From: an uncultured Desulfobacula sp.
GTDB lineage: Bacteria; Desulfobacterota; Desulfobacteria; Desulfobacterales; Desulfobacteraceae
Reading direction: 5' to 3'
Assembly (NCBI GenBank): GCA_964343845.1
Contig: CAYFKW010000016.1
Span: 19,718-83,717 of the forward strand
Length of the DNA stretch: 64,000 nt
Shown in pieces: positions 10,561 to 44,273 of the stretch. Position 1 is the first letter of the stretch; each line of letters begins with the position of its first letter. The notes beneath the pieces were generated by a model. The model did not search any database. It saw nothing but the letters and a program-made list of their open reading frames with translations, and was not told where the DNA came from. The translations under genes were made by a program, and so were the position numbers.

Positions 10561-11193
10561 CTACCTTTCTTCCTTTGATATGCCCGGCAGGCTGTTTTTC
10601 AACCACACCAGCAACCCGATAATAAAGAAAGCACCCGGTGCCAGAACCATCAGTCCCATGTTCTGGTACCCAGCGTCAACAAGGAACTGGGGGATGATGT
10701 TAACCCCCAGAATTTTGCCTGATCCCAGCAATTCTCTTAAAAAGGCAACAGATATCAATATCAGGCTGTATCCAAGACCGTTTCCAATTCCGTCAAAGAA
10801 TGAATCCAATGGTTTATTGGCCAATGCAAATGCTTCGGCCCGGCCCAGAACAATACAATTGGTAATGATTAAGCCGACAAAAATAGACAATTGTTTAGAG
10901 ATATCATAGAAAAACGCTTTTAAAATTTGATCTGTGACAATAACAAGAGATGCAATGACCGCAAGCTCTGCAATAATTCTGATATTAGATGGAATCTGTT
11001 TTCTGAGGCTTGATATGATCAGGCTTGAAAATGCAGTAACTGTTGTCAGGGCAATCCCCATGACAATAGCAGTTGACATTTTTACCGTCACAGCAAGGGC
11101 AGAACAAATCCCCAAAACCTGGTAGGCAACAGGATTTTCCTTCCAGATACCCTTGGTTAGGATTTTCAAATAATTTGCTTTTTCATCTGACAT
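10561..11193 (-). CDS. nqrD: Nqr subunit D
   Basis: [41 protein letters not shown]. Confidence 0.93.
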
Positions 11194-11215
11194 TTATATA
11201 ATCCTTTTATGCCGG

Positions 11216-11929: not shown

Positions 11930-13085
11930 TGGGAATCCTTTTTGATAGTGTAACCTTTAATACTATATGATCCAGTAAAGGGGCAAAAACATTCATGAAG
12001 AGGATGGCAAGCATTGCACCTTCAACAAATGCGGGATTGGCCACCCTGATGGTAATTGTTAAAAATCCAATCAAGAAACCAAATATCCATCTGCCAATGT
12101 TTGTTCCCGGCGAACTGACCGGATCTGTGGCCATAAATGATATGCCAAATAGAAACCCGCCCGAACATAAATGATATAAAGGGCCGGCATTTGACCAGGA
12201 GTTGCTGCCCCCTGGAATCATGTAAAACAGGATAGATGTAAAAATGAGTCCAAAAATACCGCCTGCAATAACTCTAAAATTTGCGATTCTTGTGATGATA
12301 AGAAATACAGCGCCAATGATGCAGCATAATGCAGATGTCTCCCCTATACTGCCCGGTACAAACCCAAAAAAAAGTTTGGAAAGGGTAAATCCTGAGTTTG
12401 AAAGAGCGGTTGTTATTTTTTCACCCTCCGGTGCCATGATAGACAGCGCAGTTGCACCGCTGACACCATCAACAGCGTTGTTTCCAGCAACCCAGACATC
12501 ACCTGACATGGATACAGGGTATGAAAAGAACAAAAAAGCTCTTCCTGTCAGTGCGGGATTTAAAATATTTCTGCCTGTCCCGCCAAATACTTCTTTCCCT
12601 ATGACGATTCCGAATGAAAATCCTAACGCCACCTGCCATAAAGAAATAGTAGCCGGGAGGGTCAGGGGAAACAAAAGACCTGAAACCAGAAGCCCTTCAC
12701 TGATGTTGTGTTTCCTTACCGATGCAAAAAGCGTCTCCCAAAAAAAACCCACAGTATAGGTTACCAGTATCATTGGCAGGACAACGCCTGCACCTGCAGT
12801 GAAAGATTGAATAAGTGTATATGTCCGGCCCGCTGCCAGTCCAGCCTGAAACCCGGTATTGTACATACCAAAAAACAAGACAGGTAAAAGTGAGATGATG
12901 ACAAAGCTCATATAGCGTTTAACATCCAGATTGTCCCTGACAAATGGCGTTTGGGTGTTCCTTGGTGATGGGACGAAAAAAACTGTTTTTATGGCATCAT
13001 AAAGCGGCTCGATGGATTTAAACTTTCCTGACCCTGTAAAATGTTTATCACCTATGTCAAATATTTTCTTTATAGGATTCATCAT
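11922..13085 (-). CDS. nqrB: Nqr subunit B
   Basis: GKEVFGGTGRNILNPAL, flavinylation motif DGVSGAT, GSIGETS, FMATDPVS, EGAMLAILFMNVFAPLLD. Confidence 0.93.
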   Translation of the reverse strand: MMNPIKKIFDIGDKHFTGSGKFKSIEPLYDAIKTVFFVPSPRNTQTPFVRDNLDVKRYMSFVIISLLPVLFFGMYNTGFQAGLAAGRTYTLIQSFTAGAGVVLPMILVTYTVGFFWETLFASVRKHNISEGLLVSGLLFPLTLPATISLWQVALGFSFGIVIGKEVFGGTGRNILNPALTGRAFLFFSYPVSMSGDVWVAGNNAVDGVSGATALSIMAPEGEKITTALSNSGFTLSKLFFGFVPGSIGETSALCCIIGAVFLIITRIANFRVIAGGIFGLIFTSILFYMIPGGSNSWSNAGPLYHLCSGGFLFGISFMATDPVSSPGTNIGRWIFGFLIGFLTITIRVANPAFVEGAMLAILFMNVFAPLLDHIVLKVTLSKRIPNV

Positions 13086-25525: not shown

Positions 25526-28120
25526 TTATATTGGCATCACCTTTCGATAGACTTTATCAAACGGTAATGCAGTACCATCAATGGTTAAAAGATCATCTTC
25601 AACGGAAATGCCGAACAGTGCTTCATTCTCTTTTAAATATGGAAGAATGAGGTTCCAGTCTGCATCTGTGAGCTCAGCAAACTTGCCGCCATTCAGATGC
25701 TCATCAACTACCTTACATTCCGGGTCTCTTAAAAAGATGGCACCGCCTGATGCAAGTGAAAACAGGTTTGACCCCGGATACGGCATGTCAAGATCAATCA
25801 CATTTCCGTTATCATCAAATTTAATACCATTGACAATAACAAAGCCGCCGCCATTCAGGGGATCACCTGCCATAAACGATTCAGCAAGGTAATCTAGACA
25901 CGTACCATTAATCACAACCCTTGGGCCGCCTGTTGCATTTATCAGGGGACGACCCGCAGCATTGCCCAATATATAAACATCCCCGCCTTTAGCGCCATAC
26001 ATAAAGGTTTGACCGACATCTCCGTGGACGACGAATTTTCCGCGTTTCATGATCTGTCCCAATTGATCCTGGGCATTCCCGTGAACATGGATCTGCATAC
26101 CATCAATCCCGGATGCCATGTAATCGCCTGAACTGTCGTACACATCAAATCGTACATCATCTGTACCAGGTCCAAACCCGCAGCCTGTAAATCTCTGGCC
26201 TTTGTATCCATAGCAGATATATTGCTTCCAGCCCAATCGATAGGCGTTGTTAATCATCCTGGAATCGCAATCTTTGCCTTCGGGCTCGAATTCTCGGGCA
26301 TTTACAATGAGAATTTTTTCCTTACCTTCTGGTGCGCGTAAATCTTTTCTTGTTGCACGATCAATATATGCATACCGCTGGTTTTTACTGTCTCCAATTT
26401 TAGGTGAGGATTTAAATATGGATGTCAGGCTTTCTCTGATAATTTGGAGAACCGAACTCCTTTTCTTATTGCCTGTTGGAAACAATCTGTCGTTTAAATG
26501 GGAGAGAAGATCAATGCCCATTCTCTTTTTATCATCATTATCCTTGGCAAATCCTTCAATCAACCCGCAAAGCTGTTTTAATTCTTCAAAACTTAAACCG
26601 GCAATCTCAGAGATACAGGCTTGTTTTAACCCCTGCAGATCCTGTGCGTCAAAAAGTTCGGTTATCTTATCTGTCAACGCTTTGTTCTCTTTTGTCCGCC
26701 CTAAATCCAACGTTACATCAAAATGGATTTGACCTTCTGGTGTCTGCACAACCTCACCGAATTTATTCTGTGTAATGAGTTTTTTAGATCCATCCCCTTT
26801 TTCGGAATCTTTTACAGTAAATGTAAATGCACCGCCGTCAGTGGCACTTCCTCCTCTGGCATTCCAGTATTTATCTGCAATTGGACAAAATCTGCTGTCT
26901 TCTTCAGCAATACTCTGCAATGTGGCATCTATGGCCTGTTTTTCAGAACAGACAAGCCCGATTTGAACGTCATCTCTTTCCTGGAGTGCGAAGACCTGGG
27001 GTCTTAACATCGCTGTGTCTGTGATGCCGATCAGCTGAAGGAGGTCCTTGTAAGGATCATTCCTTGCAATAATAAAGAACCAGGGCCCGTCAGGTGAGCC
27101 TGTCATATGCTGGGATTGAATGTATTTATACACATCCTGTTTATGGGAGGGCAGGCAGTCAAAATCATACTCAGTCGTCGGTGCCAGGGCTTCAATAATA
27201 TATTCCAATGGATAGTTAAAGACGCGGTTATACAGATCCAGTAAAAGAATAGAGGTTTCCGTGTCTGTCAGAAACTGGGGATAGATATTATATTGATTCA
27301 GGTATTCACATACAGCATGATAATTTGCAAAATCACCATTATGCACCAACGCTTCGTGCATACCTGAGAAAGGATGTGCACCGCCTGGATGCCACAGCCT
27401 GCCCCTGGTGGGATACCGCTGATGGGCGATCCAGCCGTGGGCCCTGAAATCATCCAGACAATAATACTGTGTTGCCTGCTCAGCATAGCCAACCACTTTT
27501 AATATCATCACATTTCTTGCATGGGACATAACAAACGCCTGCTTATCACCAAGAGAGGCATAATACGTCTGATTTAACCGTGTTGAATTCTGAAAAACAA
27601 ATTCATCTTCTGCTTTTCGCGGGTCCATGCCATAGAAATCATTATATCGGATAAATTTCTCTAAAACATCTGGTTTGACACGTACAAAATACCGCCACAC
27701 ATCCGGTGGTTTTACATCAAGCCCGATAGAGGTGTAATCATCTATAGTGGGTGTTTTTTCTGATTTGTATATATCAAACATGGGGGTAATATTGGTGGAT
27801 TCAACCTGAGGGATGGCGTCATTATCCAGGTAGGCAACCTGCAGTAGATAATGGTCTTCCAGGACGTCCTGCGGTACGCCTAAATCACTGGCACTCAGTC
27901 CAACGGCAGCAATACCGCCGCCTTTACCATTCCCCCTGTTATGCATTTGGACAGAAGGTTCATAAATATGTTTGCCCGCAACAGGGATGTTGGCCATAAA
28001 ACCTGTTACACCGCATCCGCCTTCTTCATCACATTTGTTAACAGGTGTTTTGGTGTGGGGCAGCCGGCCCCTTGAAGCCAATATGTTGTTTATGATGTTA
28101 TCTGTATTTGTCTTCATCAT
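25526..28120 (-). CDS. Glutamate synthase-like protein: class II glutamine amidotransferase fused to GXGXG domain
   Basis: EEGGCGVTGF (Ntn Cys), HNRGNGKGGG, AHQRYPT, HPF, HNGDFAN, TDTE; C-terminal GXGXG repeats (GQRFTGCG, GNAQDQ, GDVGQTFMYGAKGG, GNAAGRP, ESFMAG). Confidence 0.88.
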   Translation of the reverse strand: MMKTNTDNIINNILASRGRLPHTKTPVNKCDEEGGCGVTGFMANIPVAGKHIYEPSVQMHNRGNGKGGGIAAVGLSASDLGVPQDVLEDHYLLQVAYLDNDAIPQVESTNITPMFDIYKSEKTPTIDDYTSIGLDVKPPDVWRYFVRVKPDVLEKFIRYNDFYGMDPRKAEDEFVFQNSTRLNQTYYASLGDKQAFVMSHARNVMILKVVGYAEQATQYYCLDDFRAHGWIAHQRYPTRGRLWHPGGAHPFSGMHEALVHNGDFANYHAVCEYLNQYNIYPQFLTDTETSILLLDLYNRVFNYPLEYIIEALAPTTEYDFDCLPSHKQDVYKYIQSQHMTGSPDGPWFFIIARNDPYKDLLQLIGITDTAMLRPQVFALQERDDVQIGLVCSEKQAIDATLQSIAEEDSRFCPIADKYWNARGGSATDGGAFTFTVKDSEKGDGSKKLITQNKFGEVVQTPEGQIHFDVTLDLGRTKENKALTDKITELFDAQDLQGLKQACISEIAGLSFEELKQLCGLIEGFAKDNDDKKRMGIDLLSHLNDRLFPTGNKKRSSVLQIIRESLTSIFKSSPKIGDSKNQRYAYIDRATRKDLRAPEGKEKILIVNAREFEPEGKDCDSRMINNAYRLGWKQYICYGYKGQRFTGCGFGPGTDDVRFDVYDSSGDYMASGIDGMQIHVHGNAQDQLGQIMKRGKFVVHGDVGQTFMYGAKGGDVYILGNAAGRPLINATGGPRVVINGTCLDYLAESFMAGDPLNGGGFVIVNGIKFDDNGNVIDLDMPYPGSNLFSLASGGAIFLRDPECKVVDEHLNGGKFAELTDADWNLILPYLKENEALFGISVEDDLLTIDGTALPFDKVYRKVMPI

Positions 28121-28135: not shown

Positions 28136-29680
28136 TTATAAAACCATTTTGTACTCAGGTGCCGGTTGGTATTTCTTTTTTTCTTCCTCATCCAGATAGT
28201 CAAGGTGAACCAGAAGATCTGAACGGCCGCGAAGCTCTTTAATACTTTTTAAACCATAGGTTCTTAAAATATCGCACCACTGTTTCCGCCAGGCCATATA
28301 CATATTGACCAGGCGCTGCTCAACATATTCTTCATCGGTCATATATCCGAGTTCCGGGTCTGTGGATGCGATACCACGTGCACAGCCGCGCCCGCTTTCA
28401 CAATTCCCGCATCTGACACATTCAACTGCAACAAGATCAGCAGTTCCGATGACACATCCATCAGCACCAAGCGCAATGGCTTTTGCAACATCGAGTCCGT
28501 TTCGGATTCCTCCGCTGGCAATCAAGGTAACCTTGTCTCTGGCGCCTTCTTCAACGAGAAATCTGTGGACTTTTGGAATAGCATATTCAATTGGCATTGC
28601 AATATTCTTTTTGGCGATATCAGGCGCAGCCCCTGTTCCGCCGTAACTGCCGTCTATATGAATAATATGGGCACCCGCGTAATAGGCACCAACTGCTACC
28701 ATGTCCACATCTGTCGGCGTAGACACTTTTATGGAGCATAATACATTGTTATTGATCTCTTTCATCCAGTCTACATGTTTTTTATGATCTTCAACTGAGT
28801 AAACAGAGTGGAATGGAAAGGGAGAAAAAAGAGAGGCGCCTACAACTGTTTCTCTCATTTTGGCAACGGCTTCAGTTACTTTTTCTCCTAAGAGATGTCC
28901 GCCCAATCCTGGCTTTGCCCCCTGGGCATATTTAAATTCCATGATGGGGCAGTGTTGTATTGTTTCCTCCCTGACGCCAAACAGTCCTGTTGCCACCTGT
29001 GTAATCACATGCTCTTTGTAGGGTAGGAATTCAGGCGGGTACCCACCTTCTCCTGTACAGGTGAGAGAATTAAGTCTTTTGGCTGCTCTTGCTCTGCCGA
29101 CAATGATAGATAACGCTGTAGACCCGTAAGACATACCGCCCCCATAACAGGGAATGGAAATGGTTTTTTCAGGTCTGCCGTCTCCTGTCTTGTTCAGTTC
29201 AATGCTGGTATCAATGTCTTCATCACTAATATCTATGGCAGTGCTGGGATCCGGTTCAATAAATCGCATTTTATCAAACCCGCCGCCAGAGTTGCCTAAA
29301 TTATACTCAAGATCTACATGGGGCAGCTCTCCGGTCTCTGCCATGGCAAAATGACCCAACAGCATATCTGGTGTCCACCGGTAATCTCCCATGGTGTCCA
29401 ATAAAGGGTTTTCTTTTAACACCATGGCATCTTCAGGGCAGTGTTCAATACAATAGTGATCGGTTTTTTTACAGTCAGGCCCCACGCAGTTGTGTTCAAC
29501 CGGTCGAAAGGGCGATTTATGATTGTCCGGCATGATGTGAACACCATGAGGGCAGAGCTCTGCACACTTACCGCAAGAAACGCATTTAGCATTTCTTTTG
29601 ACAATATATTTGCCGATGGTGTTTCGAAACCGTGAAGGTGTTTTTTTGATTTCAGGCAGTTTTATTTCTGAATTACTCAT
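28136..29680 (-). CDS. Glutamate synthase FMN-binding subunit (GltB2 type) with N-terminal ferredoxin
   Basis: CVSCGKCAELCP...CIEHCP; GGGMSYGS, TGEGG, QVATGLFGV, EFKYAQGAKPGLGGHL, SGGIR, ALGADG, CVRCGNC...C. Confidence 0.92.
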   Translation of the reverse strand: MSNSEIKLPEIKKTPSRFRNTIGKYIVKRNAKCVSCGKCAELCPHGVHIMPDNHKSPFRPVEHNCVGPDCKKTDHYCIEHCPEDAMVLKENPLLDTMGDYRWTPDMLLGHFAMAETGELPHVDLEYNLGNSGGGFDKMRFIEPDPSTAIDISDEDIDTSIELNKTGDGRPEKTISIPCYGGGMSYGSTALSIIVGRARAAKRLNSLTCTGEGGYPPEFLPYKEHVITQVATGLFGVREETIQHCPIMEFKYAQGAKPGLGGHLLGEKVTEAVAKMRETVVGASLFSPFPFHSVYSVEDHKKHVDWMKEINNNVLCSIKVSTPTDVDMVAVGAYYAGAHIIHIDGSYGGTGAAPDIAKKNIAMPIEYAIPKVHRFLVEEGARDKVTLIASGGIRNGLDVAKAIALGADGCVIGTADLVAVECVRCGNCESGRGCARGIASTDPELGYMTDEEYVEQRLVNMYMAWRKQWCDILRTYGLKSIKELRGRSDLLVHLDYLDEEEKKKYQPAPEYKMVL

Positions 29681-29683: not shown

Positions 29684-31102
29684 TTATCCTACATCTATAG
29701 ATACTTTGCGTTCACCGAAAATTGGTGCAAAACTTTCTTTTTCAAGGTCTTCAAACCACATGGATCGTCCAACTTCTCCCCTTAACCGTCTGGCTTCCCT
29801 CAACCCCATGGCACCAAGCATTTCAAGCATTTGATTCCGCCAGGCACCCATAAGGTTTATGATCCGATTGCTGCCATATTCAGAATCAATAGATTCCATT
29901 TCAACGGGACAGGAAAGATCCATTTCACATCGGCCGCACAACCGGCATTCCATGGCAATAAGAAGCGGCAGGTCAATTGAAACGCCGTCAGCACCACAGA
30001 TAATGGATTTGTTGACATGTTCCGCCAAACAGATACCGCCTGAGGCAAGGATATTAATCTGCTGTCGGGTTGCTGCATCGATTAGTGCCAGGTGGATATC
30101 CCGCAGCATATCCTTGATAAACCTCGGGTTGTCAGATTCAAGTTCTCTTCCCTGGCTGTCCGCGTAAACGTGGAGGGTATCAATCTCTTCTTTTGAAAGG
30201 TCGACACAAATTTGTGCATAATCAAGATCTGCTTTTAACTCAAGTCCAACACTGATCACCAGGTTTTCATTCATAGCCTTAAGCTGTTTGAAACAGGTTT
30301 CAATGCCGGGCTCATATTCAATCTCAACCATGTCAACGATGGACAGAAGTTTTGGATAATTTCCAAAGTTCTCTTTTTTTACCATTGGAACGATAGATTT
30401 TGAAAAAGACATCATGTCTTCATAAACATCTGCTGCCTTTACAAACATCTTTGTCCCAATAGCCTGGGCAGCAGTTAACATCGAAGCAAGAACGGATTTG
30501 CTGAAAACACCAAAATTGGGTTGTTGAAACAGAATTGGAAGCGGGATTTCAAGTATGGGTTTAACATCTACAGCAAGTGAACCGTCTGAATTAAACGATA
30601 ATCTTTCAGGCCTTCTTGAAAGCTCTATGCAGGTATTGATGTATTCCCGGCCATGGATACCGTCCCGTGTGGGGCGAACAATTTCTGACATGTCTGTCCA
30701 CATGGAATCAAATCCCTTTCCCACAAAACGGCCTCGATACCCTGCGCCGGAAACAGGGATGCTTCCTGTATGCGCCTGGTACCAGGTTCGGTTGAGGACA
30801 TCAGGTGTCCAATAGTCATCTCCAATTTCTCTGTACTCCGGGTTGACCACTCTTGAAAAAATTCCTTTGGTACATTCCTGGATACATCTAAAGCACGAAT
30901 TACACGTATACAAATATTCGGGCTCCTCCATTTTGCTCATGTGAAGATAGTTGTCTTTGAAGATGTCATATACACATTTTTTCTTTACACACTCTTTACA
31001 GCTGCCGGCACAGTTTTCCCTGAATTCTATGGTTGAGTATTTCCCAACAGGGTAAAACCGTGGTGGTGCTGCCTTTGTGTGAATATGATATTTTTGAGGC
31101 AT
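29684..31102 (-). CDS. Degenerate glutamate synthase FMN-domain paralog with N-terminal Fe-S motifs
   Basis: CAGSCKECVKKKC and CNSCFRCIQEC; GFDSMWTD, SGGICLAEHVNKSIICGADG, CRLCGRC, REARRLRG. The GGMS, TGEGG and QGAKPG motifs are absent. Confidence 0.82.
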   Translation of the reverse strand: MPQKYHIHTKAAPPRFYPVGKYSTIEFRENCAGSCKECVKKKCVYDIFKDNYLHMSKMEEPEYLYTCNSCFRCIQECTKGIFSRVVNPEYREIGDDYWTPDVLNRTWYQAHTGSIPVSGAGYRGRFVGKGFDSMWTDMSEIVRPTRDGIHGREYINTCIELSRRPERLSFNSDGSLAVDVKPILEIPLPILFQQPNFGVFSKSVLASMLTAAQAIGTKMFVKAADVYEDMMSFSKSIVPMVKKENFGNYPKLLSIVDMVEIEYEPGIETCFKQLKAMNENLVISVGLELKADLDYAQICVDLSKEEIDTLHVYADSQGRELESDNPRFIKDMLRDIHLALIDAATRQQINILASGGICLAEHVNKSIICGADGVSIDLPLLIAMECRLCGRCEMDLSCPVEMESIDSEYGSNRIINLMGAWRNQMLEMLGAMGLREARRLRGEVGRSMWFEDLEKESFAPIFGERKVSIDVG

Positions 31103-31122: not shown

Positions 31123-32031
31123 TTATTTTAGTCCAGCCTGTTCAACGATGCCGGCTACGGCGTCTTCCCACTCGATGGCCATAATATGAACCCCATGAAC
31201 CCCTTTAAGTTCTTTAAGTTCCTGTATGGTTTCAAGACAGATTTTAATGCCTTCACCTGCCTGATCCTTTTTATCAACACCGTCCATCCTTTGAATAATC
31301 TCTTCAGGCACATCCATGCCAGCCACTTTGCTGTTCATGTATTTTGCCATGCCGGCAGACCGAAGTGGTGTAACGCCACCTAAAATAAATACTTTTTCAG
31401 TTAACCCTTCTTCATTGGCCTGTCTGATCCACTCTTTAAACCTTGCCATGTTGTAAATACACTGGGTCTGGATGAAATCAACGCCGGCATCAATTTTTTT
31501 AGCAAGTCTGATAACTCTATATTCAAAAGGATCCGCAAAAGGGTTGGCTGCTGCACCAATAAACATCTGCGGGGCAACATCGAGATCAAATCCACTCATG
31601 TCTTTGCCTGTATCCCGCATATCACGAACCGTTCTAATCAGGTTTACAGAATCAATATCAAAAACATTCATGGCATCCGGCTGGCTGCCAAAATTTTGAT
31701 GATCCCCGGACAGGCATAGTATATTACGGATACCTAAAGAATAAGCACCCATAATATCGGATTGGATGGCAATGCGGTTCCTGTCCCTTACGACCATCTG
31801 CATCACAGGTTCTAAACCAGCCGAAACCAGATGGGCAGACGCAGCAATACTTGACATTCTTACGATAGCTGTCTGGTTATCGGTGACATTGACAGCATCA
31901 ACATGCCCATTTAATAATTTAATTTTTTTTTCAATGACCTCTTTATTTGCGCCCCTTGGAGGGCCGCATTCACCTGTTACTGCAAATTCGTTGTTAAGTA
32001 ATTTTTCGTGGAGTTTACTGATGGCATTCAT
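31123..32031 (-). CDS. metF: Methylenetetrahydrofolate reductase, FMN/FAD subunit
   Basis: ECGPPRG, VNVTDNQTA, CLSGDH, AKKIDAGVDFIQTQ, GVHIMA. Confidence 0.93.
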   Translation of the reverse strand: MNAISKLHEKLLNNEFAVTGECGPPRGANKEVIEKKIKLLNGHVDAVNVTDNQTAIVRMSSIAASAHLVSAGLEPVMQMVVRDRNRIAIQSDIMGAYSLGIRNILCLSGDHQNFGSQPDAMNVFDIDSVNLIRTVRDMRDTGKDMSGFDLDVAPQMFIGAAANPFADPFEYRVIRLAKKIDAGVDFIQTQCIYNMARFKEWIRQANEEGLTEKVFILGGVTPLRSAGMAKYMNSKVAGMDVPEEIIQRMDGVDKKDQAGEGIKICLETIQELKELKGVHGVHIMAIEWEDAVAGIVEQAGLK

Positions 32032-32696
32032 ATGATGTGGTCCTCCCTGATCAATTTTCTAGGTCCACCGGAAAGACTGGTATTCCAGTTTTTTGGAGGG
32101 ATATAGGTTTTTAAATTATCCATCTGGCCTAACGTACGAAGACGTTCAATTATCATGTGCCATGCACACTCTGTATTCGGGTCAATTTCGCAAAGCCCTT
32201 CCTGGGAACCGCCGCAGGGACCGTTTAAGAGTTTTTTGGAGCATCGGGTCACAGGGCAGACACCGCCAAAAGTTGCCAACTCACAGTTTCCGCACCCGGA
32301 ACATTCTTCAGTAAAAATACCGTGGCTCTCCTGTATGCCGATAAATGTGGTGTTTACACCAGGCAATACCACTTCTTTTTCAAATCGCTTGGCCATTGCC
32401 TGTACACCTGCACCGCAGGCAAGAGACAAAATAGCATCATTTCTTGCAATCGATTCCGCTGCTTCCTGAATAAATTCATTTTCGCATTGACGTTCGATGG
32501 TAAATTCTTCAATTTCAATGGGTCTTGCCATTTTGTTAAAACTCAGTCTCAGGGCAGATGCTAAAACAGCAACTTCGTCTTCACCGCCGGCAAAGCATGT
32601 TTTTACACAAGTGCCGCAGCCAAGAATCAAGACCTTTTTATAAGGTTCAACAAGTTCAATAATTTCGTTAATGGGTTTTTGACTACCGGTTATCAT
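32028..32696 (-). CDS. metV: MetV (MTHFR-associated Zn/Fe-S subunit)
   Basis: GCGTCVKTC, RQCE, ACGAGVQ, CSGCGNC...CPVTRCSKKLLNGPCGG...C...C; overlaps metF by 4 nt. Confidence 0.88.
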   Translation of the reverse strand: MITGSQKPINEIIELVEPYKKVLILGCGTCVKTCFAGGEDEVAVLASALRLSFNKMARPIEIEEFTIERQCENEFIQEAAESIARNDAILSLACGAGVQAMAKRFEKEVVLPGVNTTFIGIQESHGIFTEECSGCGNCELATFGGVCPVTRCSKKLLNGPCGGSQEGLCEIDPNTECAWHMIIERLRTLGQMDNLKTYIPPKNWNTSLSGGPRKLIREDHII

Positions 32697-32866: not shown

Positions 32867-33271
32867 TTAATTAAAATGATTTAAAGCAGGATTCGGACCG
32901 ATCGTTTCAAGCGATGCTATTGTGTCCTGAATAATATCTTTAATCGACCCGCTGTCTTTCGCAGTTGTATTGAAAATGTTCAACCGCCCGCTGTCCATTC
33001 CAATGTCATCAAGGATAGTTTTTACATAATCAACCCGTTTCTTTGCCCGGATACTGCCTTCAGCATATCTGCAGCCCTTATTGGGACAAACAAGAACGAT
33101 GACAGCATCTGCACCCGCTTCAAAAGCTCTGAGCAGATGGACATCTTTTGTCATGGAGGAACAAGCCATTTTAACAGTTTTTGCTTCACAACCGTCAAAC
33201 ATCGAGGCTGTCTCTTCAAACGAGTTTAAACAATGAAACAGCGTAAGTTTTGGTGTTTTGTTAATGTTCAT
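32867..33271 (-). CDS. mvhD: MvhD-like [2Fe-2S] protein (methyl-viologen hydrogenase delta subunit family)
   Basis: Four Cys in MvhD spacing (FHC, MACSS, LVC, GCRY) and the motif AFEAGADAV...RAKKRV...IGMDSGRL; ATG 33271 preferred over TTG 33283. Confidence 0.85.
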   Translation of the reverse strand: MNINKTPKLTLFHCLNSFEETASMFDGCEAKTVKMACSSMTKDVHLLRAFEAGADAVIVLVCPNKGCRYAEGSIRAKKRVDYVKTILDDIGMDSGRLNIFNTTAKDSGSIKDIIQDTIASLETIGPNPALNHFN

Positions 33272-33291
33272 TTTTTTCCCCAAAATTAAAT

Positions 33292-33334
33292 AAAAAAAGG
33301 CATTCGCCCAGGTTAATATTGGGAAAACGCCTTT
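33292..33334 (-). terminator. Leader intrinsic terminator (attenuator) upstream of mvhD
   Basis: Minus strand reads AAAGGCGTTTTCCCA-ATATTAACC-TGGGCGAATGCCTTT-TTTT; its 5' arm is the loop and 3' arm of ANTAR hairpin P2. Confidence 0.85.
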
Positions 33335-33368
33335 GTTTTCTTTAATTTTGCTAATACGCCGTTGTATT
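33323..33368 (-). promoter_or_regulatory. ANTAR-binding dual-hexaloop RNA motif
   Basis: Minus strand: P1 AATAC-AACGGC-GTATT (33368-33353), 12-nt linker, P2 GAAAAC-AAAGGC-GTTTTC (33340-33323). Both loops have A at position 1 and G at position 4. Confidence 0.85.
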
Positions 33369-33381
33369 TAGCTGGATTCTC

Positions 33382-33410
33382 AGCTTAGTGGCAACGGTTA
33401 AAAATGTCAA
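33382..33410 (-). promoter_or_regulatory. sigma70-type promoter of the mvhD-metV-metF-glt operon
   Basis: TTGACA (33410-33405), 17-nt spacer, TAAGCT (33387-33382); P1 starts about 14 nt downstream. Confidence 0.75.
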
Positions 33411-33477
33411 GGGTTTTTTTGAATTGATGCGTCTTCTTCTGTTTTTCAAATGCTGGCGGATATAATCATGGCCATTG

Positions 33478-38400: not shown

Positions 38401-39126
38401 TTAAGGAGAATTTTTGGTAAAAATTTCATCAGACAGAATGACAGCCTCTGCAACTTCACGAATTGATTTTCTCGAATCCATGCTTTTTTTACGAATCCAG
38501 CCATAGGCATCATCACCTGTCATTTTATGCTGGTCCATTAAAATTTCTTTTGCCTGTTCTATCTTTTTCCGCGCCTCTAATTCTTCCTGGATCACCCTTG
38601 TTTTCACCATGAGCTCTGTGTTTACAATCGCCACAGCGCTTTGATTGGCAACCGCTCTGAGAAGATTGACTTCAGTTGGAGAAAAATCATGAGGGGAAGC
38701 TGTAAAACAGTTTAAGACACCAATGACTTTCTCTTCTTTGGTGATCAAAGGAATGCCCACCATGGAGACAAGTCCCAGCTTTTTTGCCATTTCTTTTTCT
38801 TTAAATCGATCTGATTCCAGGACATCGTCTAATATCAGGGGCTTTTTGTGGGTTACAACATAACCGACAACCCCTTCATCCAGATTAAGTGCCCGGTCTT
38901 TTATATAGTCCGGAGAAATGGACTGGGTCGCTTTAAGCCGGATCTTTGGTGGTTTCTCATCTTCATTAACAATCCATAAAGAGCAGATCTCCACCCCTGT
39001 AACCTTAGCGGTTACCATGACAATCAGTTTCAACAGGTCTTCAATAAACAGATCTGATGTGATTGCCTGGCTGATATCAGTTAATGCTTTAATATACCCG
39101 TCATATGTCTGTTCTGATTTTTTCAT
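38401..39126 (-). CDS. GAF-ANTAR one-component RNA antiterminator
   Basis: GAF domain (EGVVGYV, SMVGIPL, IGVLNCFT, QSAVAI) followed by ANTAR (LEARKKIEQAKEILM...DAYGWIRKKSMDSRKSIREVAEAV). Confidence 0.92.
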   Translation of the reverse strand: MKKSEQTYDGYIKALTDISQAITSDLFIEDLLKLIVMVTAKVTGVEICSLWIVNEDEKPPKIRLKATQSISPDYIKDRALNLDEGVVGYVVTHKKPLILDDVLESDRFKEKEMAKKLGLVSMVGIPLITKEEKVIGVLNCFTASPHDFSPTEVNLLRAVANQSAVAIVNTELMVKTRVIQEELEARKKIEQAKEILMDQHKMTGDDAYGWIRKKSMDSRKSIREVAEAVILSDEIFTKNSP

Positions 39127-39200: not shown

Positions 39201-41531
39201 CTAAAATGCGTTGTTTGGTATTAAATCCCAGATTCCACAAGGGCAGGCACCTTTGCAGAAACCACACCCAATGCACAGGTCCGCGTCTACTTTATATTCA
39301 AAAGCATTTTTTTTGATACTGATTCTTTCAATGGCACCTTCCGGGCAGATGGCAACACAGATGCCACAATCCCTGCATTTCCCACAGGAAGCACAGTTCG
39401 CACCACAGTCAGCCAGGTTGTCTGCCGTCATTTTAGGATCATAATACTCAAGACTGATCCGTTGTTTATCCACCTGAACCGGATGGTCAATTTTGTCCAG
39501 ATTTTTGCCTTCAATGATTTTATCAATACTTTGTGCGGCTCTTCTACCCGCACCAATGGCATCTGTAATCAAACCCGGGCCCACAACATCCCCGATTGCA
39601 AAAATATTTCGATCTGAGGTCCGGTTGAACTCATCTACTTTGACAAACCCATTTTCAATTTGAATCGTGTCGTCCAGAAAATCAAGATCAGGAACATCGC
39701 CAATCGAGAGCACGATGGTGTCTGCCTTTAACAATTGACCATCCTGGAGTAAAACGCCTTTTTTAGTGATTTCTTTTGTGAAACAGGGCCATTTGAATTT
39801 TGCACCAACTGCTTCGGCGTCTTCTTTTTCTTTTCCAAAAGCCAGCGGTTTTTGAATATCAATCATGGTGATATCCCTGGCGCCCAGACGGTGCGCTTCG
39901 GTTGCCACATCACAACCGACATTGCCCGCGCCGATGATTACCATTGCCTTGCCTGGTTTTACTTTTCCCTTTTTTGATTTTTCCAGAAAATCATTTGCAA
40001 AAGTTGCCTGTTCAATGCCTGGAATCGGCAGGGATCTTGGTTTTTTTGCGCCAGCGGCAATGATGGTAAAATCGTAATCAAGTATGATTTTTGAGAATTT
40101 TTTTTGAGTGATTTTCTGTTTTACTTTGATGTTCGGAATGAACGCCTTAACACGATTGAGTTCAGTTTCAAGTGTCTCTTTTGGTATCCGTGAACCCGGT
40201 ATGACAGACGCAATTTTCCCGCCAATCTGCGAGCCTGTTTCAAATAAAGTAGCATCATGCCCCATAAGAGTTAAATGCCAGGCAGAAGAGATACCACCAG
40301 GCCCTGAACCGATAACTGCAATTTTCTTTTTACTTTTTTTACCAGGTTTTGGCAGTTTTACTTTTTCACCTGCTTTGCCTAAAAGCCTGACATCAATGGG
40401 CGACATATAATTTAAATTCCGGGTACAGGATGCCATACATGGACTTGGGCAGAGATATCCACAAACAGTTGCAGGAAACGGTGAATATTCAAGCCCCATA
40501 GAAATGGCTTCATCAATATTGTCCAGGCGGACCATATTCCATCTTTCCTGAACAGGAATGCCTGTGGGACAAGCCGCCTGGCAGGGCGCAATATATCTTC
40601 CCTGTTCCCAAACAGGGATGTATCGTCTCAGGTCTCCTCTGGTGATCACTGGAATGGTGCCCCTCTGTGTTTCCTGAAGGTCACCTATCAGACCGCCTGG
40701 CCCAAGCTCCCTGTCCCACACATCCGCTCTGAATTTTGCCATACTCATTCTTTCGGGCGCTTCTGTTTTCTCCTGGGGAGATTTTGCTTCAAGCAGCTGC
40801 CATTGAGTACGGTTTGAAAATGATGTCAGCAACTTGTCTTTTTTAATTTTGGCCAGAAAAATTTTAAGGCCTTTTTGAAGCCAGTTCCATTCCTCGTCTG
40901 TGAGTAAACTGAGTTTGGCATCCTTTTGGGAGAATTCATCAACACTGCCGTGAACAAAAATTTTACCACCCACCATCCCAATAAGGGGCCGATACCCGAG
41001 GATTTCGTCCCTGGGATCAATATTGTGACCGCAGATAACAGCGATGCCGCCCGCCATAAACTCACCAAAGTAATCTCCAGCAGATCCCAGCACCCAGAGT
41101 TCCGGCGGATCAAATCTTGGGTTCCTTTTTGTCATGGTCATGCCCCTGGCACCGATGGAACCTGCAATATACACTTTGCCCTGGGCCGCGCCATTCATTA
41201 CACCGTTGGAGGCGTTGCCATGAACGATAATCTCAGCACCTGCATTCAGCCATCCAACGTCATCTGATGCTGGTCCCATGATTTCGATCAAGGTATTTGC
41301 ACTCCCGAGAGATCCTGTTCTCTGCCCGGACTGGCCCGTGATTCTTATATGGGTGTTTTCTGAACCAGCATCCCAAAGACGTCCCCCGATACCGTGTTGG
41401 CCAAAGCCTTGTATTTCAATGTTTCTACGACCGTTTTTAATATGATGATGAATCATTTCTTCCAGGACGCGGGAAGGTATTCTTTTCCCATCCTTTTTTC
41501 CGGGCAGTTTTATAAATGCATCTTTTTTCAT
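39201..41531 (-). CDS. Glutamate synthase GXGXG domain fused to GltD-like NAD(P)H/FAD oxidoreductase and ferredoxin
   Basis: GQHGIGGR, GSAGDYFGEFMAGG; CQAACP, CGYLCPSPC; GSGPGG, GAGNVGCD, AIGDV; CASCGKCRDCGIC and CIGCGFCKGACP. Confidence 0.9.
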   Translation of the reverse strand: MKKDAFIKLPGKKDGKRIPSRVLEEMIHHHIKNGRRNIEIQGFGQHGIGGRLWDAGSENTHIRITGQSGQRTGSLGSANTLIEIMGPASDDVGWLNAGAEIIVHGNASNGVMNGAAQGKVYIAGSIGARGMTMTKRNPRFDPPELWVLGSAGDYFGEFMAGGIAVICGHNIDPRDEILGYRPLIGMVGGKIFVHGSVDEFSQKDAKLSLLTDEEWNWLQKGLKIFLAKIKKDKLLTSFSNRTQWQLLEAKSPQEKTEAPERMSMAKFRADVWDRELGPGGLIGDLQETQRGTIPVITRGDLRRYIPVWEQGRYIAPCQAACPTGIPVQERWNMVRLDNIDEAISMGLEYSPFPATVCGYLCPSPCMASCTRNLNYMSPIDVRLLGKAGEKVKLPKPGKKSKKKIAVIGSGPGGISSAWHLTLMGHDATLFETGSQIGGKIASVIPGSRIPKETLETELNRVKAFIPNIKVKQKITQKKFSKIILDYDFTIIAAGAKKPRSLPIPGIEQATFANDFLEKSKKGKVKPGKAMVIIGAGNVGCDVATEAHRLGARDITMIDIQKPLAFGKEKEDAEAVGAKFKWPCFTKEITKKGVLLQDGQLLKADTIVLSIGDVPDLDFLDDTIQIENGFVKVDEFNRTSDRNIFAIGDVVGPGLITDAIGAGRRAAQSIDKIIEGKNLDKIDHPVQVDKQRISLEYYDPKMTADNLADCGANCASCGKCRDCGICVAICPEGAIERISIKKNAFEYKVDADLCIGCGFCKGACPCGIWDLIPNNAF

Positions 41532-41544
41532 TCTTATACCTCAT

Positions 41545-43179
41545 TTAAACCACATATTTTATGCTGAGTCGTTCAGCGGCAGCAGGATCATCGATTCCAA
41601 GCGCGTCAGACATCCCAATTGGAAGGGATGTTGAACGGCCGAGCGGGGCGACTATTTTTTTAAGTTCAGTATCAAAGGAAAGATAAAGATCAACAATTCT
41701 CTGGGCAACATCTTCAGGGTCCAGTCGCCTGTACAGTCTTGGGTCCTGAGAGGTAATCCCTTTTGGACAGATGCCGACATTGCAGACATTGCAGCGGTCT
41801 TCTTCTGTTCCAACACAACCTGCAGCAGCCTGCATTGCATATTTTCCAATCTGGATCCCACTTGCACCCAGCATGATCAAAGCGGCTGCATTGGCAGCAA
41901 GATTGCCATTTTTACCAATACCCCCGCCGGCAAAAATCGGAATTTCATTTTGTTTGCCTATTTTTATCAGGTTTAAATAATTATCCCTGATGCAGGAGGC
42001 AATCGGGTGACCCATGTGGTCCATGGAAACAGTATAGGCAGCGCCCGTTCCGCCATCTTCCCCGTCAATGGCAAGGGCAGATGCGTAATCATTCCGGGTT
42101 AAATTATTCAACACAGCCAGTGAAGTAGAAGATGCGGATATTTTTGGATACACCGGTACCCTGAACCCCCATGCCATGGACATGGACAAAATCATTTTTG
42201 CCACTGACTCTTCGATTGAGTATTGGGTCTGGTGCGTTGGGGGACTGGGCAGACTGATGCCTTGAGGAACCCCACGGATGGCAGCGATAAGTTTATTGAC
42301 TTTGTGCCACATCAAAAGGCCGCCGTCTCCTGGTTTCGCCCCCTGACCATATTTGATTTCAATGGCGCAGGGATCTTCTTTCATGTGTGGAATCGCATGA
42401 ATAATCTCATCCCAGCCAAAATATCCGGATGCGATTTGCAGGATAACATATTTTAAAAACCTGGATTTCAGCAGCCGGGGCGGGCAGCCGCCTTCTCCTG
42501 TTGACATCCTGACCGGCATTCCCAACGTTTCATTTAAATAGGCAACCCCCATTTGAAGCCCTTCCCACATACTGGGAGACAAAGCACCAAAGGACATACC
42601 CCCTATGATTAAAGGATAGATTTCTCTAACAGGCGGAATCCACCCTTTTTCTTTCAATTGCTTCATGTTTTCTTTTGGAGAAAGAACTCTGCCCAGTAAT
42701 GTTCTCATTTCAAACTCATGGCGGCCGGCATCAAGTGCTGGATCTGTCAGCATGGAAATCCGGGTAAACTTGATTCTATCTAAAATTGAGCCGGAGACAT
42801 TTCTTCTGCCGCCGCGCCGCCTTGGGATACCCTGTTGATTGATATGAAATTTGAGACGATCCAAACCTGGATTTTTCACCGGTGTTATGGCATCATTGGG
42901 GCACACCATAGTGCACATGGCACAGCCGATACAGGCGTTTTCAACTTGCGTTTTCTGTTGTATCCCATAAAAAGTTCCATATTGGTTGGAATGGTCTGTC
43001 TCTTTATTTACAGAGGTTTTAATCTTCCTCTTTTGAAAAACAGACAGATCAATGGCCTTAACCGGGCACACAGCAGTGCACTGGCCGCACAATGTGCACC
43101 GGTCATTGCTGTAACGAATCTGCCAGGGCAGATCATTTAAGCTTAAAGCGGAAGGTTCAAGGCTTCTGTTTGACGACAT
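41545..43179 (-). CDS. Glutamate synthase FMN-binding subunit with N-terminal 2x[4Fe-4S]
   Basis: CTLCGQCTAVCP, CIGCAMCTMVCP, GGMSFGALS, STGEGG, QIASG, EIKYGQGAKPGDGG, C...CNVCNVGICP. Confidence 0.92.
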   Translation of the reverse strand: MSSNRSLEPSALSLNDLPWQIRYSNDRCTLCGQCTAVCPVKAIDLSVFQKRKIKTSVNKETDHSNQYGTFYGIQQKTQVENACIGCAMCTMVCPNDAITPVKNPGLDRLKFHINQQGIPRRRGGRRNVSGSILDRIKFTRISMLTDPALDAGRHEFEMRTLLGRVLSPKENMKQLKEKGWIPPVREIYPLIIGGMSFGALSPSMWEGLQMGVAYLNETLGMPVRMSTGEGGCPPRLLKSRFLKYVILQIASGYFGWDEIIHAIPHMKEDPCAIEIKYGQGAKPGDGGLLMWHKVNKLIAAIRGVPQGISLPSPPTHQTQYSIEESVAKMILSMSMAWGFRVPVYPKISASSTSLAVLNNLTRNDYASALAIDGEDGGTGAAYTVSMDHMGHPIASCIRDNYLNLIKIGKQNEIPIFAGGGIGKNGNLAANAAALIMLGASGIQIGKYAMQAAAGCVGTEEDRCNVCNVGICPKGITSQDPRLYRRLDPEDVAQRIVDLYLSFDTELKKIVAPLGRSTSLPIGMSDALGIDDPAAAERLSIKYVV

Positions 43180-44273
43180 ATTTTTACCTCCTGGCGGTCA
43201 GAGCCGACGATTGCTGTATCAATGTGCATGGGTTGAATATCTTTTGTCTTATCTCGATCCGGAATAATCGCATCAAGACCACACACTTCAGATGAAAATC
43301 CAAAAAATCCCGGTTTCCCGCCCACAATCCCCGGCCGAAGTTTTTTTCTATCCTGTACCATGAATAGAGAACGATCCGGCAGCGTACCGATAATACAATT
43401 GGGGCCATCAATAATCAGGGGCCTGCAGGTCTGCTTGAGATGTGATAAAAATTCTGCATTCGGGTGTTTTTGGAGATCGTCTTTCTGCAATGGTGTGATG
43501 ACATGTTTATAGGCATCGATTCCCAATTCAAGGCCCACCATTGAATAATGGAGAATATGTGCAAAGACTTCAGAGTCAGATTGATATCCCATATACCCGG
43601 GAAAATCTCTTGATAATAAAAAGTCTTTGATAGGGGTGAAGGCTGTATTTTCCCCATTGGTCATGGTGCAGTATCCCCTGATAAAGAATGGGTGGCAGGC
43701 ATACAGGTTAATAGCGTAATTTGTATTTTGGCGGCCTTGGGCCATAATAATTCTGGCATTCAGTTCTTTTCGGTCCAGTCCAAGGTATTCAGCCAGCTGC
43801 ATCGGATCGCCAATCTCTTTGATCATAATGGTATCCGGCCAGAAAGAGAACACGATCATATCATTTTTTTCTTCACCCATTTCTCTTATCTTTAATCGAA
43901 TATGCATCAGCCGTTTAGAAATTTCGTCCTGCGCCAGCGTATCCCAATCCTCTGGCAGCTCGTAGGCTCTTATCAAGTAAAGATCACGTTTTGGAATACC
44001 CTCAACAGGTTTTTTGGGTATTTTTAATGAAATTTTATACTTGGTGAGAAATCCCTGATCCATCATAAAAAGATCGAGGCGTCGTATCCCTTCCTCACTG
44101 AAGATTCCTGAAAGAATCGGTGCATCTTTCATCTCTTCAAACGGGCCGCCCAGGTCCTGGAGCAGAAGCCCCACGCCTGAACCGTCATGCCCTTCTTTCA
44201 TGACGTCAAGGGCTTTTATGGCCAGCATTGGAGATACAGGATCTTCACTGGTAAGCGCAAACAGACGACACAT
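43143..44273 (-). CDS. Glutamate synthase amidotransferase subunit (class II GATase)
   Basis: N-terminal MCRLF (catalytic Cys2), GHDGSG, GRQNT, CHPF, NGEN, SDSE, DGP, LRPG; AAGGAG RBS. Confidence 0.92.
   Translation of the reverse strand: MCRLFALTSEDPVSPMLAIKALDVMKEGHDGSGVGLLLQDLGGPFEEMKDAPILSGIFSEEGIRRLDLFMMDQGFLTKYKISLKIPKKPVEGIPKRDLYLIRAYELPEDWDTLAQDEISKRLMHIRLKIREMGEEKNDMIVFSFWPDTIMIKEIGDPMQLAEYLGLDRKELNARIIMAQGRQNTNYAINLYACHPFFIRGYCTMTNGENTAFTPIKDFLLSRDFPGYMGYQSDSEVFAHILHYSMVGLELGIDAYKHVITPLQKDDLQKHPNAEFLSHLKQTCRPLIIDGPNCIIGTLPDRSLFMVQDRKKLRPGIVGGKPGFFGFSSEVCGLDAIIPDRDKTKDIQPMHIDTAIVGSDRQEVKICRQTEALNLPL

What the first reader, a model, noticed from the sequence alone, without database searches (positions are those of the whole stretch)
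29684..31102. Catalytically degenerate GltB2 paralog tandem to an intact one
Seen: compared with its neighbour 28136-29680 it lacks GGMSYG, TGEGG and EFKYAQGAKPG, but keeps the N-terminal Fe-S Cys motifs, GFDxM, SGGI...GADG and CxxCxxC. It lies directly after metF. Inference: a pseudo-enzyme acting as an electron-wire or scaffold between MetVF/MvhD and the active synthase subunit.
Basis: partly seen in the sequence, partly recalled or inferred. Interest (0 to 1): 0.55.

Follow-up and report, generated by a model that had tools for sequence, protein, structure and literature searches.

The report
Inactive iron-sulfur twin of glutamate synthase
This gene encodes a copy of the flavin subunit of glutamate synthase that has lost its active site but kept its iron-sulfur clusters; it always sits beside the working copy and most likely brings electrons into an undescribed, widespread form of this nitrogen-assimilating enzyme.

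Summary
The 472-aa product of 29684-31102 (P1) is a paralog of its neighbour, the intact ferredoxin-fused FMN subunit (P2, 28136-29680). P1 keeps a full barrel like the GltB FMN domain (Z 27) and 12 conserved Cys. It keeps only 4 of 110 P2-invariant positions in barrel strands 1-6, and a 44-residue deletion removes the 2-oxoglutarate/FMN loop.

It is not a decaying copy. The family occurs in at least 589 species genomes from many phyla, co-evolves with P2, and has 43 invariant positions of its own.

Its constant partners are P2 and the GATase-GXGXG protein P3. An MvhD-like protein is nearly always present. MetF is frequent but optional.

P1 is naturally fused to P2 in several lineages. In Chloroflexota it is fused to a GlcD-type FAD dehydrogenase directly upstream of P2-P3, with no MvhD or MetF.

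Best reading (0.6): P1 is a non-catalytic iron-sulfur adaptor that pairs with P2 and feeds it electrons from interchangeable donor modules.

The scan has flagged this operon before on other genomes. I found no paper describing it.

The parts
29684..31102 (-). P1: FMN-site-less, Fe-S-bearing paralog of the glutamate synthase FMN subunit (472 aa, P0001)
   Evidence: AF2 model pLDDT 84.5. Residues 91-470 match the GltB FMN-domain barrel (1ea0_A 782-1185, Z 27.4, rmsd 3.0, 319 aligned).
30872..31012 (-). N-terminal ferredoxin-like domain: C31/C35/C38/C43 and C67/C70/C73/C77, candidate ligands for two [4Fe-4S] clusters
   Evidence: All 8 Cys are at least 97% conserved in 84 sequences. The family profile matches PsaC-type 2x[4Fe-4S] proteins and Fer4 Pfam families.
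30632..30766 (-). P1-specific invariant block, residues 113-157 (includes WTDMSEIVRPTRDGIHGRE); role unknown
   Evidence: The block is kept exactly in the Chloroflexota GlcD-Fer4-P1 fusions. No PDB sequence resembles it.
30299..30304 (-). Site of the 44-residue deletion (between I267 and E268) that removes the KxAQGAKPGxGG...FHSVYSVEDH loop of P2
   Evidence: hhalign of the P1 family against the P2 family; 37 P2-invariant positions are deleted.
29909..30046 (-). Strand 7/8 loops ASGGI..AEH..K..CGADG followed by the barrel Fe-S motif C386-x2-C389-x2-C392-x5-C398
   Evidence: In P2, three Cys of the same Cx2Cx2Cx5C motif (first, third and fourth) align with the Cx5Cx4C motif of A. brasilense GltB, which by established knowledge holds the [3Fe-4S] ligands.
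28136..29680 (-). P2: intact ferredoxin-fused FMN/synthase subunit (GltB2, 514 aa)
   Evidence: Pfam Glu_synthase 290.8 bits. It aligns to 2vdc_A 873-1170 at E 3e-50.
25526..28120 (-). P3: class-II glutaminase (Ntn Cys36 after a propeptide) fused to the GXGXG beta-helix domain (864 aa)
   Evidence: Pfam GATase_6 and GXGXG. GGCGVTGF, HNGDFANY and other GATase motifs are at least 95% conserved in 52 sequences.
31123..32031 (-). MetF (MTHFR family), second copy in the genome
   Evidence: Pfam MTHFR 139 bits. A canonical hdrD-hdrL-mvhD-metV-metF cluster lies on contig C26.
32028..32696 (-). MetV
   Evidence: Pfam DUF5981 (MTHFR C-terminal) 124 bits.
32867..33283 (-). MvhD-like small Fe-S protein, first gene of the operon
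   Evidence: Pfam FlpD 76 bits. C18, C41, C66 and C71 are at least 95% conserved in 69 sequences. An MvhD-like gene lies upstream of P1 in 57 of 58 loci.
33284..33420 (-). Leader with a hairpin and a terminator-like stem plus U-run in front of mvhD
   Evidence: RNA fold z -4.2. The ANTAR reading comes from the scan's earlier notes and was only partly checked here.

Best explanation
P1 is a non-catalytic paralog of the FMN/synthase subunit of a split (archaeal-type) glutamate synthase.

Origin: it arose by one old duplication of the P2-type subunit. It lost the FMN/2-oxoglutarate pocket and the loop that lines the ammonia path. It kept a complete barrel and the Cys ligands for three Fe-S clusters: two in the N-terminal ferredoxin domain and one after barrel strand 8.

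Proposed role: P1 forms a pseudo-heterodimer with P2. It serves as the docking and electron-entry module of the enzyme P1+P2+P3. Electrons would pass from a variable donor module through P1's clusters into P2's clusters and FMN, where 2-iminoglutarate is reduced. The donor module here is MvhD-like plus MetVF. Elsewhere it is MvhD plus MetF plus HdrCB plus HdrA/GltD, or a fused GlcD-type FAD dehydrogenase.

Shown: the homology, the loss of the site, the conservation, the synteny and the fusions.

Inferred: cluster binding, the P1-P2 contact, and the direction and route of electrons.
For: - Fold and homology.
- Loss of the canonical site: only 4 of 110 P2-invariant positions survive in strands 1-6, and 44 residues are deleted.
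- Purifying selection on the 12 Cys and on 43 P1-specific positions in 84 sequences.
- Breadth: at least 589 loci in species genomes of many phyla, and 240 clusters at 50% identity with E<=1e-30.
- Pairing: P2 is the next gene in 73 of 77 loci, P3 follows in 59 of 61, and an MvhD-like gene is upstream in 57 of 58.
- Tree: the P1 and P2 trees are separate and congruent, and the other GltB2 type lies outside both.
- Natural P1-P2 fusions of about 973-1069 aa: L033, L034, L035, L106, L132, L134 and P0128, P0135, P0137, P0139, P0142.
- Chloroflexota L147: FAD_binding_4 + FAD-oxidase_C + 2x[4Fe-4S] + P1 in one 1196-aa protein, followed at once by P2 and P3, with no MvhD, MetF or Hdr.
- The second glutamate synthase of this genome (39201-44273) carries its own GltD-type NAD(P)H module and has no P1. 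P1 therefore goes with the version that lacks a GltD partner.
- Operons without metF sit beside GlnE or GAF-ANTAR genes, which fits nitrogen assimilation.
Against: - There is no biochemical or structural datum for any member.
- P1 keeps the strand 7/8 loops (SGG, GADG) that bind the FMN phosphate in relatives, so a flavin or another phosphorylated ligand is not excluded.
- The invariant block at residues 113-157, plus E361 and H362, could be a ligand or catalytic site rather than an interface.
- AF2 models no cofactors, and the block has only pLDDT 52-80.
- No prediction of a P1-P2 or P1-MvhD complex could be run.
- The 80 loci analysed are the closest relatives returned by the scan, not a random sample.
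Confidence: 0.6

Rival explanations
1. P1 is an enzyme or cofactor-binding subunit in its own right. The P1-specific invariant residues (D137, S139, R143, R146, D147, R152, E153, E361, H362, K365) together with the retained SGG/GADG loops would form a new pocket beside the barrel Fe-S cluster. That pocket could hold an electron-transfer or bifurcating flavin, or a small substrate.
For: There are 43 P1-specific invariant positions, many of them charged. The phosphate-binding-type loops of strands 7 and 8 are conserved. The block is invariant even when the donor module changes completely.
Against: The loops of strands 1-6, which build the flavin and substrate site in all related barrels, are essentially unconserved in P1. 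The loop carrying the conserved GAKPG Lys of P2 is deleted. The invariant block is modelled with low confidence, as expected for an interface segment.
Confidence: 0.17
2. P1 is mainly a structural scaffold, a functional counterpart of the central domain of bacterial GltB. It would pack on the FMN barrel and help position the glutaminase and the ammonia path, while its Fe-S clusters are structural only.
For: The GltB central domain is described as a truncated barrel possibly derived from duplication of the FMN barrel, and it lines the tunnel (PMC8097209). P1-P2 fusions have the same order as central then FMN. The P1 family aligns to the central domain over 232 columns at probability 92.4. 33 of 47 relatives hit Pfam Glu_syn_central at E<=1.
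Against: The other split synthase in this genome works without any such partner. P1 is far closer to FMN domains (E 6e-18) than to central domains (E 5e-7), and P2 matches the central domain just as well. Twelve conserved Cys, and the fusion to a dehydrogenase plus ferredoxin module, point to electron transfer.
Confidence: 0.13
3. P1, P2 and P3 with MetVF/MvhD form one supercomplex whose real task is folate redox chemistry. Examples are methyl-THF oxidation with 2-iminoglutarate as electron sink, or an electron-bifurcating MTHFR. In this reading P1 is a MetVF-specific connector.
For: mvhD-metV-metF-P1-P2-P3 is the commonest order (18 of 35 fully covered loci) and metF is linked in three different gene orders. 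In five metV-less (mvhD-metF-P1-P2-P3) genomes checked, the operon's MetF-like gene is a dedicated, weaker-scoring paralog beside another MetF. This genome also has a separate MetF beside hdrL.
Against: P1 occurs with P2 and P3 but without metF in 5 of the 35 fully covered loci (3 mvhD-P1-P2-P3, 2 with metV only) and in L033, L035 and L038. It occurs without MvhD or MetF in Chloroflexota. The metF-less operons have nitrogen-assimilation neighbours.
Confidence: 0.08
4. P1 is a decaying duplicate with no function.
For: It evolves faster than P2: mean identity to the window copy is 57% against 71% in 46 loci, and its branches are longer.
Against: The reading frame is intact in hundreds of genomes across phyla. 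The 12 Cys and 43 further positions are invariant, and the tree is congruent with that of P2.
Confidence: 0.01

Closest known systems
FMN/synthase subunit of split, archaeal-type glutamate synthase (ferredoxin-fused GltB2; here P2 at 28136-29680 and the second copy at 41545-43179)
   Same: Same domain order: an N-terminal 2x[4Fe-4S]-type domain, then a (beta/alpha)8 barrel, then a Cx2Cx2Cx5C motif after strand 8. Profile-profile probability is 100 and the barrel matches at Z 27. P1 and P2 are each other's nearest relatives.
   Different: There are no GGMSYG, GEGG, KxAQGAKPGxGG or GGTGA motifs. 44 residues are deleted and only 4 of 110 invariant positions of strands 1-6 are kept. P1 has its own invariant block at residues 113-157.
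Central domain of bacterial GltB (Pfam PF04898; A. brasilense 1ea0 residues about 423-780)
   Same: Both are degenerate barrel copies without a flavin site, placed N-terminal to the catalytic FMN barrel; the P1-P2 fusions have the same order. The literature proposes that the central domain arose by duplication of the FMN barrel (PMC8097209). Weak but real profile similarity exists (probability 92.4).
   Different: P1 is a complete barrel with three sets of Fe-S ligands, whereas the central domain is truncated and, by established knowledge, carries no cofactor. P1 is much closer to FMN domains than to central domains. This looks like a parallel case, not the same family.
GltD (beta subunit) of NADPH-glutamate synthase
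   Same: The proposed job is the same: a partner that brings electrons through [4Fe-4S] clusters to the Fe-S cluster of the FMN barrel (PMC8097209).
   Different: The folds are unrelated. P1 has no FAD/NAD(P)H Rossmann domain, so it needs a separate donor module.
MetFV-HdrABC-MvhD methylene-THF reductase of Moorella thermoacetica (from established knowledge and the scan's earlier notes)
   Same: The MvhD, MetF and MetV genes are shared. The longer form of the operon also has HdrC, HdrB and an HdrA/GltD-type protein (L122).
   Different: That complex contains no GltB-type subunits. Here P1-P2-P3 are inserted and the window's operon has no Hdr genes.

Membership tests
Glutamate synthase FMN/synthase domain (PF01645; GltB2 type) | (beta/alpha)8 barrel homologous to the GltB FMN domain | tested here: met
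   VIA-align Z 27.4 to 1ea0_A 782-1185; hhalign probability 100 against the P2 family; Pfam 47.5 bits against a cut-off of 20.4, but only over profile positions 259-368.
Glutamate synthase FMN/synthase domain (PF01645; GltB2 type) | FMN and 2-oxoglutarate site motifs (GGMSYG, GEGG, KxAQGAKPGxGG loop, GGTGA) | tested here: not met
   All four motifs are replaced or deleted. Only 4 of 110 invariant positions are kept.
Glutamate synthase FMN/synthase domain (PF01645; GltB2 type) | Cys ligands of the Fe-S cluster after strand 8 | tested here: met
   C386, C389, C392 and C398 are at least 97% conserved. P2 has the same Cx2Cx2Cx5C motif, which aligns with the Cx5Cx4C motif of A. brasilense GltB.
Glutamate synthase FMN/synthase domain (PF01645; GltB2 type) | N-terminal 2x[4Fe-4S] ferredoxin domain of the archaeal-type subunit | tested here: met
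   8 conserved Cys; profile matches to PsaC and to Fer4 families. Cluster binding itself was not tested.
Glutamate synthase FMN/synthase domain (PF01645; GltB2 type) | Reductive synthesis of glutamate from 2-oxoglutarate and ammonia | not testable with these tools
   This needs an enzyme assay. The sequence argues against it.
GltB central domain (PF04898) | Closer in sequence to central domains than to FMN domains | tested here: not met
   hhalign of P1 against the central domain gives E 5e-7, against E 6e-18 for the classical FMN domain. P2 matches the central domain equally well (E 8e-7). P0001 itself has no PF04898 hit at E<=1.
GltB central domain (PF04898) | Flavin-less barrel copy placed N-terminal to the FMN barrel | tested here: met
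   Gene order is P1 then P2, and natural P1-P2 fusions exist. This is a resemblance in layout only.
Pseudo-enzyme partner of an active paralog | Catalytic site lost, yet under purifying selection and obligately linked to the active paralog | tested here: met
   P2 is adjacent in 73 of 77 loci, the trees are congruent, and fusions occur.
GltD-type electron-input subunit | FAD/NAD(P)H-binding Rossmann domains | tested here: not met
   There are no Pyr_redox or Fer4_20 hits in P0001. Such domains are present in the 776-aa protein at 39201-41531.

The most novel reading that the evidence does not exclude
P1 is the universal plug of a new class of glutamate synthases. The plug is a cluster-bearing pseudo-subunit that lets one catalytic core (P2+P3) take electrons from interchangeable donor modules. 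The modules seen are MvhD/MetF(V) with or without HdrCB-HdrA/GltD, which may work by electron bifurcation, and in Chloroflexota a fused GlcD-type 2-hydroxy-acid dehydrogenase. Nitrogen assimilation in many anaerobes would then be driven by donors never shown for this enzyme. The P1-P2 pair would also be a living parallel of the duplication thought to have produced the central domain of classical GltB.
Probability: 0.35. Interest if true: 0.8.

Novelty: new variant of a known kind. Interest (0 to 1): 0.62.

Why it matters
Glutamate synthase is the main entry of ammonia into biomass. Its known forms draw electrons from NAD(P)H via GltD, from ferredoxin, or (in proposals for archaea) from F420.

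This work points to a fourth, phylogenetically broad design. It occurs in Desulfobacterota, Chloroflexota, Planctomycetota, Nitrospirota, Verrucomicrobiota and others. In it, the electron-entry subunit is a disabled copy of the catalytic subunit itself.

If the reading is right, it gives a defined, testable protein family for three questions:
- How anaerobes pay for nitrogen assimilation.
- What the MvhD/MetF/Hdr genes next to these operons do.
- How multi-domain GltB could have evolved by duplication and loss of function.

It would also correct the current annotations, which read 'glutamate synthase-related protein', 'ferredoxin' or 'hypothetical'.

Tried and rejected
- A single-sequence AF2 model was useless (pLDDT 31). 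It was redone with a 47-sequence alignment.
- phmmer of P0001 against PDB sequences found nothing. The invariant block alone gave only chance hits.
- NCBIfam has no model for P1.
- Idea that P1 is the ortholog of the GltB central domain: rejected. P1 is much closer to FMN domains, and P2 matches the central domain equally well.
- Idea that P1 is MetVF-specific: rejected on synteny and on the Chloroflexota fusion.
- Idea that the window's MetF is the only, catabolic MTHFR: rejected. A canonical hdrD-hdrL-mvhD-metV-metF cluster lies on contig C26.
- Literature: eight full-text searches and the reading of six papers found no description of this subunit or operon. The library lacks most subscription journals, so this is not proof of absence.
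The context of the fusion protein was obtained instead through the genome search and the fetch from genomes.
- The careful tree search did not finish; the quick IQ-TREE result is reported.

Full report
**What is there.** On the minus strand the window carries six close-packed genes:
- an MvhD-like protein (32867-33283)
- MetV (32028-32696)
- MetF (31123-32031)
- the target P1 (29684-31102, 472 aa)
- an intact ferredoxin-fused glutamate synthase FMN subunit, P2 (28136-29680, 514 aa)
- P3 (25526-28120, 864 aa), which joins a class-II glutaminase to the GXGXG domain

The closest protein relatives are from Desulfobacula and other Desulfobacteraceae.

**Check of the observation.** P1 and P2 are full-length paralogs. 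BLASTP gives 23% identity and E 2e-28. The family profiles align with probability 100.
GGMSYG becomes QQPNFG, TGEGG becomes VKAADV, and DGSYGGTGAAP becomes YADSQGRELESDNP.
- The KYAQGAKPGLGG...FHSVYSVEDH loop is removed by a 44-residue deletion.
- Every motif listed as kept is present and conserved: two N-terminal Cys motifs, GFDxM, ASGG...GADG, and Cx2Cx2Cx5C after strand 8.
- In numbers, only 4 of 110 positions that are invariant in strands 1-6 of the P2 barrel survive in the P1 family, and 37 are deleted. By contrast, 12 of 18 survive in the ferredoxin domain and 20 of 46 from strand 7 to the C-terminus.

**Fold.** With a 47-sequence alignment AlphaFold gives a confident model: mean pLDDT 84.5, with the barrel above 90. 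Residues 91-470 superpose on the FMN domain of bacterial GltB (1ea0_A 782-1185, Z 27.4, rmsd 3.0 A, 319 residues, 17% identity). They do not superpose on its central domain. P1 is therefore a complete barrel whose old catalytic face is no longer constrained.

**Not a decaying copy.**
- The family has 240 clusters at 50% identity with E<=1e-30.
- At least 589 loci were found in one-genome-per-species collections. They come from Desulfobacterota, Dehalococcoidia, Planctomycetota, Verrucomicrobiota, Nitrospiraceae, Geobacter, Armatimonadota, Spirochaetaceae, Omnitrophota and others.
- In the order of the window's genome it was found in 46 of 151 genomes searched.
- Twelve Cys are at least 97% conserved.
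- 43 positions are invariant in P1 but different in P2. Twenty-six of these lie in residues 109-154, including WTDMSEIVRPTRDGIHGRE. The rest include E361, H362, C369, R387 and a C-terminal RE.RRLRGE.GR stretch.
- A quick maximum-likelihood tree separates P1 from P2 (support 99 and 97). The two subtrees are largely congruent. The genome's other GltB2 type falls far outside both. P1 branches are about twice as long.
- This pattern fits one old duplication of a P2-type gene, followed by co-inheritance of the pair.

**Partners.** Counts come from the 80 closest loci, using only those with enough flanking DNA:
- P2 is the next gene in 73 of 77.
- P3 follows in 59 of 61.
- An MvhD-like gene lies upstream in 57 of 58.

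MetF is common but movable. Among 35 fully covered loci the orders are:
- mvhD-metV-metF-P1-P2-P3: 18
- mvhD-metF-P1-P2-P3: 8
- mvhD-P1-P2-P3-metV-metF: 4
- mvhD-P1-P2-P3: 3
- with metV only: 2

Further points on context:
- More distant members of the window's own order also lack metVF. They sit beside GlnE, or beside a GAF-ANTAR regulator plus a large HdrA/GltD-type protein.
- One metV-less locus was checked by Pfam. It continues with HdrC, HdrB and an HdrA/GltD-type protein (L122). This agrees with the ten-gene form that earlier notes of this scan describe.
- In five such genomes the operon's MetF-like gene is a weaker-scoring paralog beside a better MetF elsewhere.
- The window's genome likewise has a canonical hdrD-hdrL-mvhD(TGA)-metV-metF cluster on another contig.

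**Fusions.**
- P1 is fused to P2, in that order, in L033, L034, L035, L106, L132 and L134, and in five cluster representatives of 971-1041 aa.
- In Chloroflexota the P1 domain is the C-terminal part of proteins of about 1,200 aa. These begin with a GlcD/D-lactate-dehydrogenase-type FAD domain and a 2x[4Fe-4S] domain.
- In locus L147 this fusion gene is followed at once by P2 and P3, with no MvhD, MetF or Hdr gene.
- The fused domain keeps the P1 block DMSEIVRPTRDGIHGRE letter for letter. Its barrel Cys motif differs from that of free-standing P1.
- These fusions tie P1 physically both to P2 and to an electron-donating dehydrogenase.

**Most likely mechanism (confidence 0.6).** P2 plus P3 hold everything needed for glutamine-dependent glutamate synthesis.
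- P2 has all FMN-domain motifs and aligns with A. brasilense GltB at E 3e-50.
- P3 keeps the Ntn Cys and the glutaminase motifs.
- What the operon lacks is a GltD-type NAD(P)H subunit. The genome's second synthase (39201-44273) has one and has no P1.
- I infer that P1 pairs with P2 as a pseudo-heterodimer. Its three clusters would carry electrons from whatever donor module is present into P2's clusters and FMN.
- In bacterial GltS the beta subunit does this job through two [4Fe-4S] clusters that feed the [3Fe-4S] cluster of the barrel (PMC8097209). P1 would do it with a recycled copy of the catalytic subunit.

Shown here: homology, site loss, conservation, linkage and fusions. Inferred: cluster occupancy, the contacts and the route of electrons. 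The physiological donor in this Desulfobacula-type operon remains open. It could be reduced ferredoxin, methyl-THF via MetVF, or an Hdr module encoded elsewhere.

**Rivals.**
- The invariant block and the retained SGG/GADG loops leave room for a ligand or flavin site of P1's own (0.17).
- A purely structural role like that of the GltB central domain is possible (0.13). However, the P1 family is far closer to FMN domains (E 6e-18) than to central domains (E 5e-7), and P2 matches central domains equally well. The central domain is therefore a parallel, not the same family.
- A MetVF-specific connector role (0.08) is contradicted by the metF-less and MvhD-less forms.
- Simple decay is refuted by the conservation data.

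**Novelty.** Sources name the protein 'glutamate synthase-related protein', 'ferredoxin' or 'hypothetical'. NCBIfam has no model for it. Eight literature searches and six papers gave no description of the subunit or the operon.

The scan itself has noted the six-gene and ten-gene operons and the 'inactive copy' on other genomes. I re-derived those points here.
- the count of lost and retained invariant positions
- the tree
- the P1-specific motif
- the comparison with the central domain
- the Chloroflexota dehydrogenase-P1 fusion next to P2-P3

**Verdict.** This is a real, conserved and functionally specialised pseudo-subunit. It belongs to a new variant of a known enzyme.

Noticed in passing
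L147 8089-16015 (G214:C249, Chloroflexota MAG): A three-gene unit. The first gene encodes one 1196-aa protein with a GlcD/D-LDH-type FAD domain, a 2x[4Fe-4S] domain and a P1 domain. P2 and P3 follow directly. This is a candidate 2-hydroxy-acid-driven glutamate synthase.
   Followed up: partly
window 39201-44273 and 38401-39126: A second, differently split glutamate synthase: a 376-aa protein with no Pfam hit, a 544-aa GltB2, and a 776-aa GXGXG+GltD+Fer4 fusion. It ends in a GAF-ANTAR regulator gene. In the relative L061 this cluster lies only about 1 kb from mvhD.
   Followed up: partly
window 33284-33420 (minus): The leader before mvhD folds into a hairpin plus a strong terminator-like stem with a U-run (z -4.2). 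Earlier notes of the scan read it as an ANTAR attenuator. GAF-ANTAR genes lie upstream of the operon in L038, L061, L065, L068, L071 and L098.
   Followed up: partly
G000 contig C26 (L060 3510-11372): A canonical hdrD-like, HdrA/GltD-type (1031 aa), 405-aa Fe-S protein, mvhD, metV, metF cluster. The hdrD-like gene and mvhD each have an in-frame TGA, probably selenocysteine. Several other MvhD paralogs of the genome also carry in-frame TGA.
   Followed up: partly
window 25526-28120 (P3): The glutaminase has a propeptide of about 35 residues before the conserved GGCGVTGF. A poorly conserved insert of about 180 residues (roughly 440-620) lies between the glutaminase and the GXGXG domain.
   Followed up: no
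L070, L072, L073, L084: Contigs labelled 'uncultured Actinomycetota' carry the Desulfobacterales-type six-gene operon at 70-73% P1 identity. This suggests mis-binning or recent transfer.
   Followed up: no
L037 (G111:C48) 6638-12110: A variant order, mvhD-metV-mvhD-metF-P1-P2, with two MvhD-like genes.
   Followed up: no
P0156, P0184, P0197, P0225, P0226, P0230: P1 relatives of 512-578 aa in which the first 40-65 residues are replaced by a different N-terminal region of about 90-130 residues with no Pfam hit.
   Followed up: no
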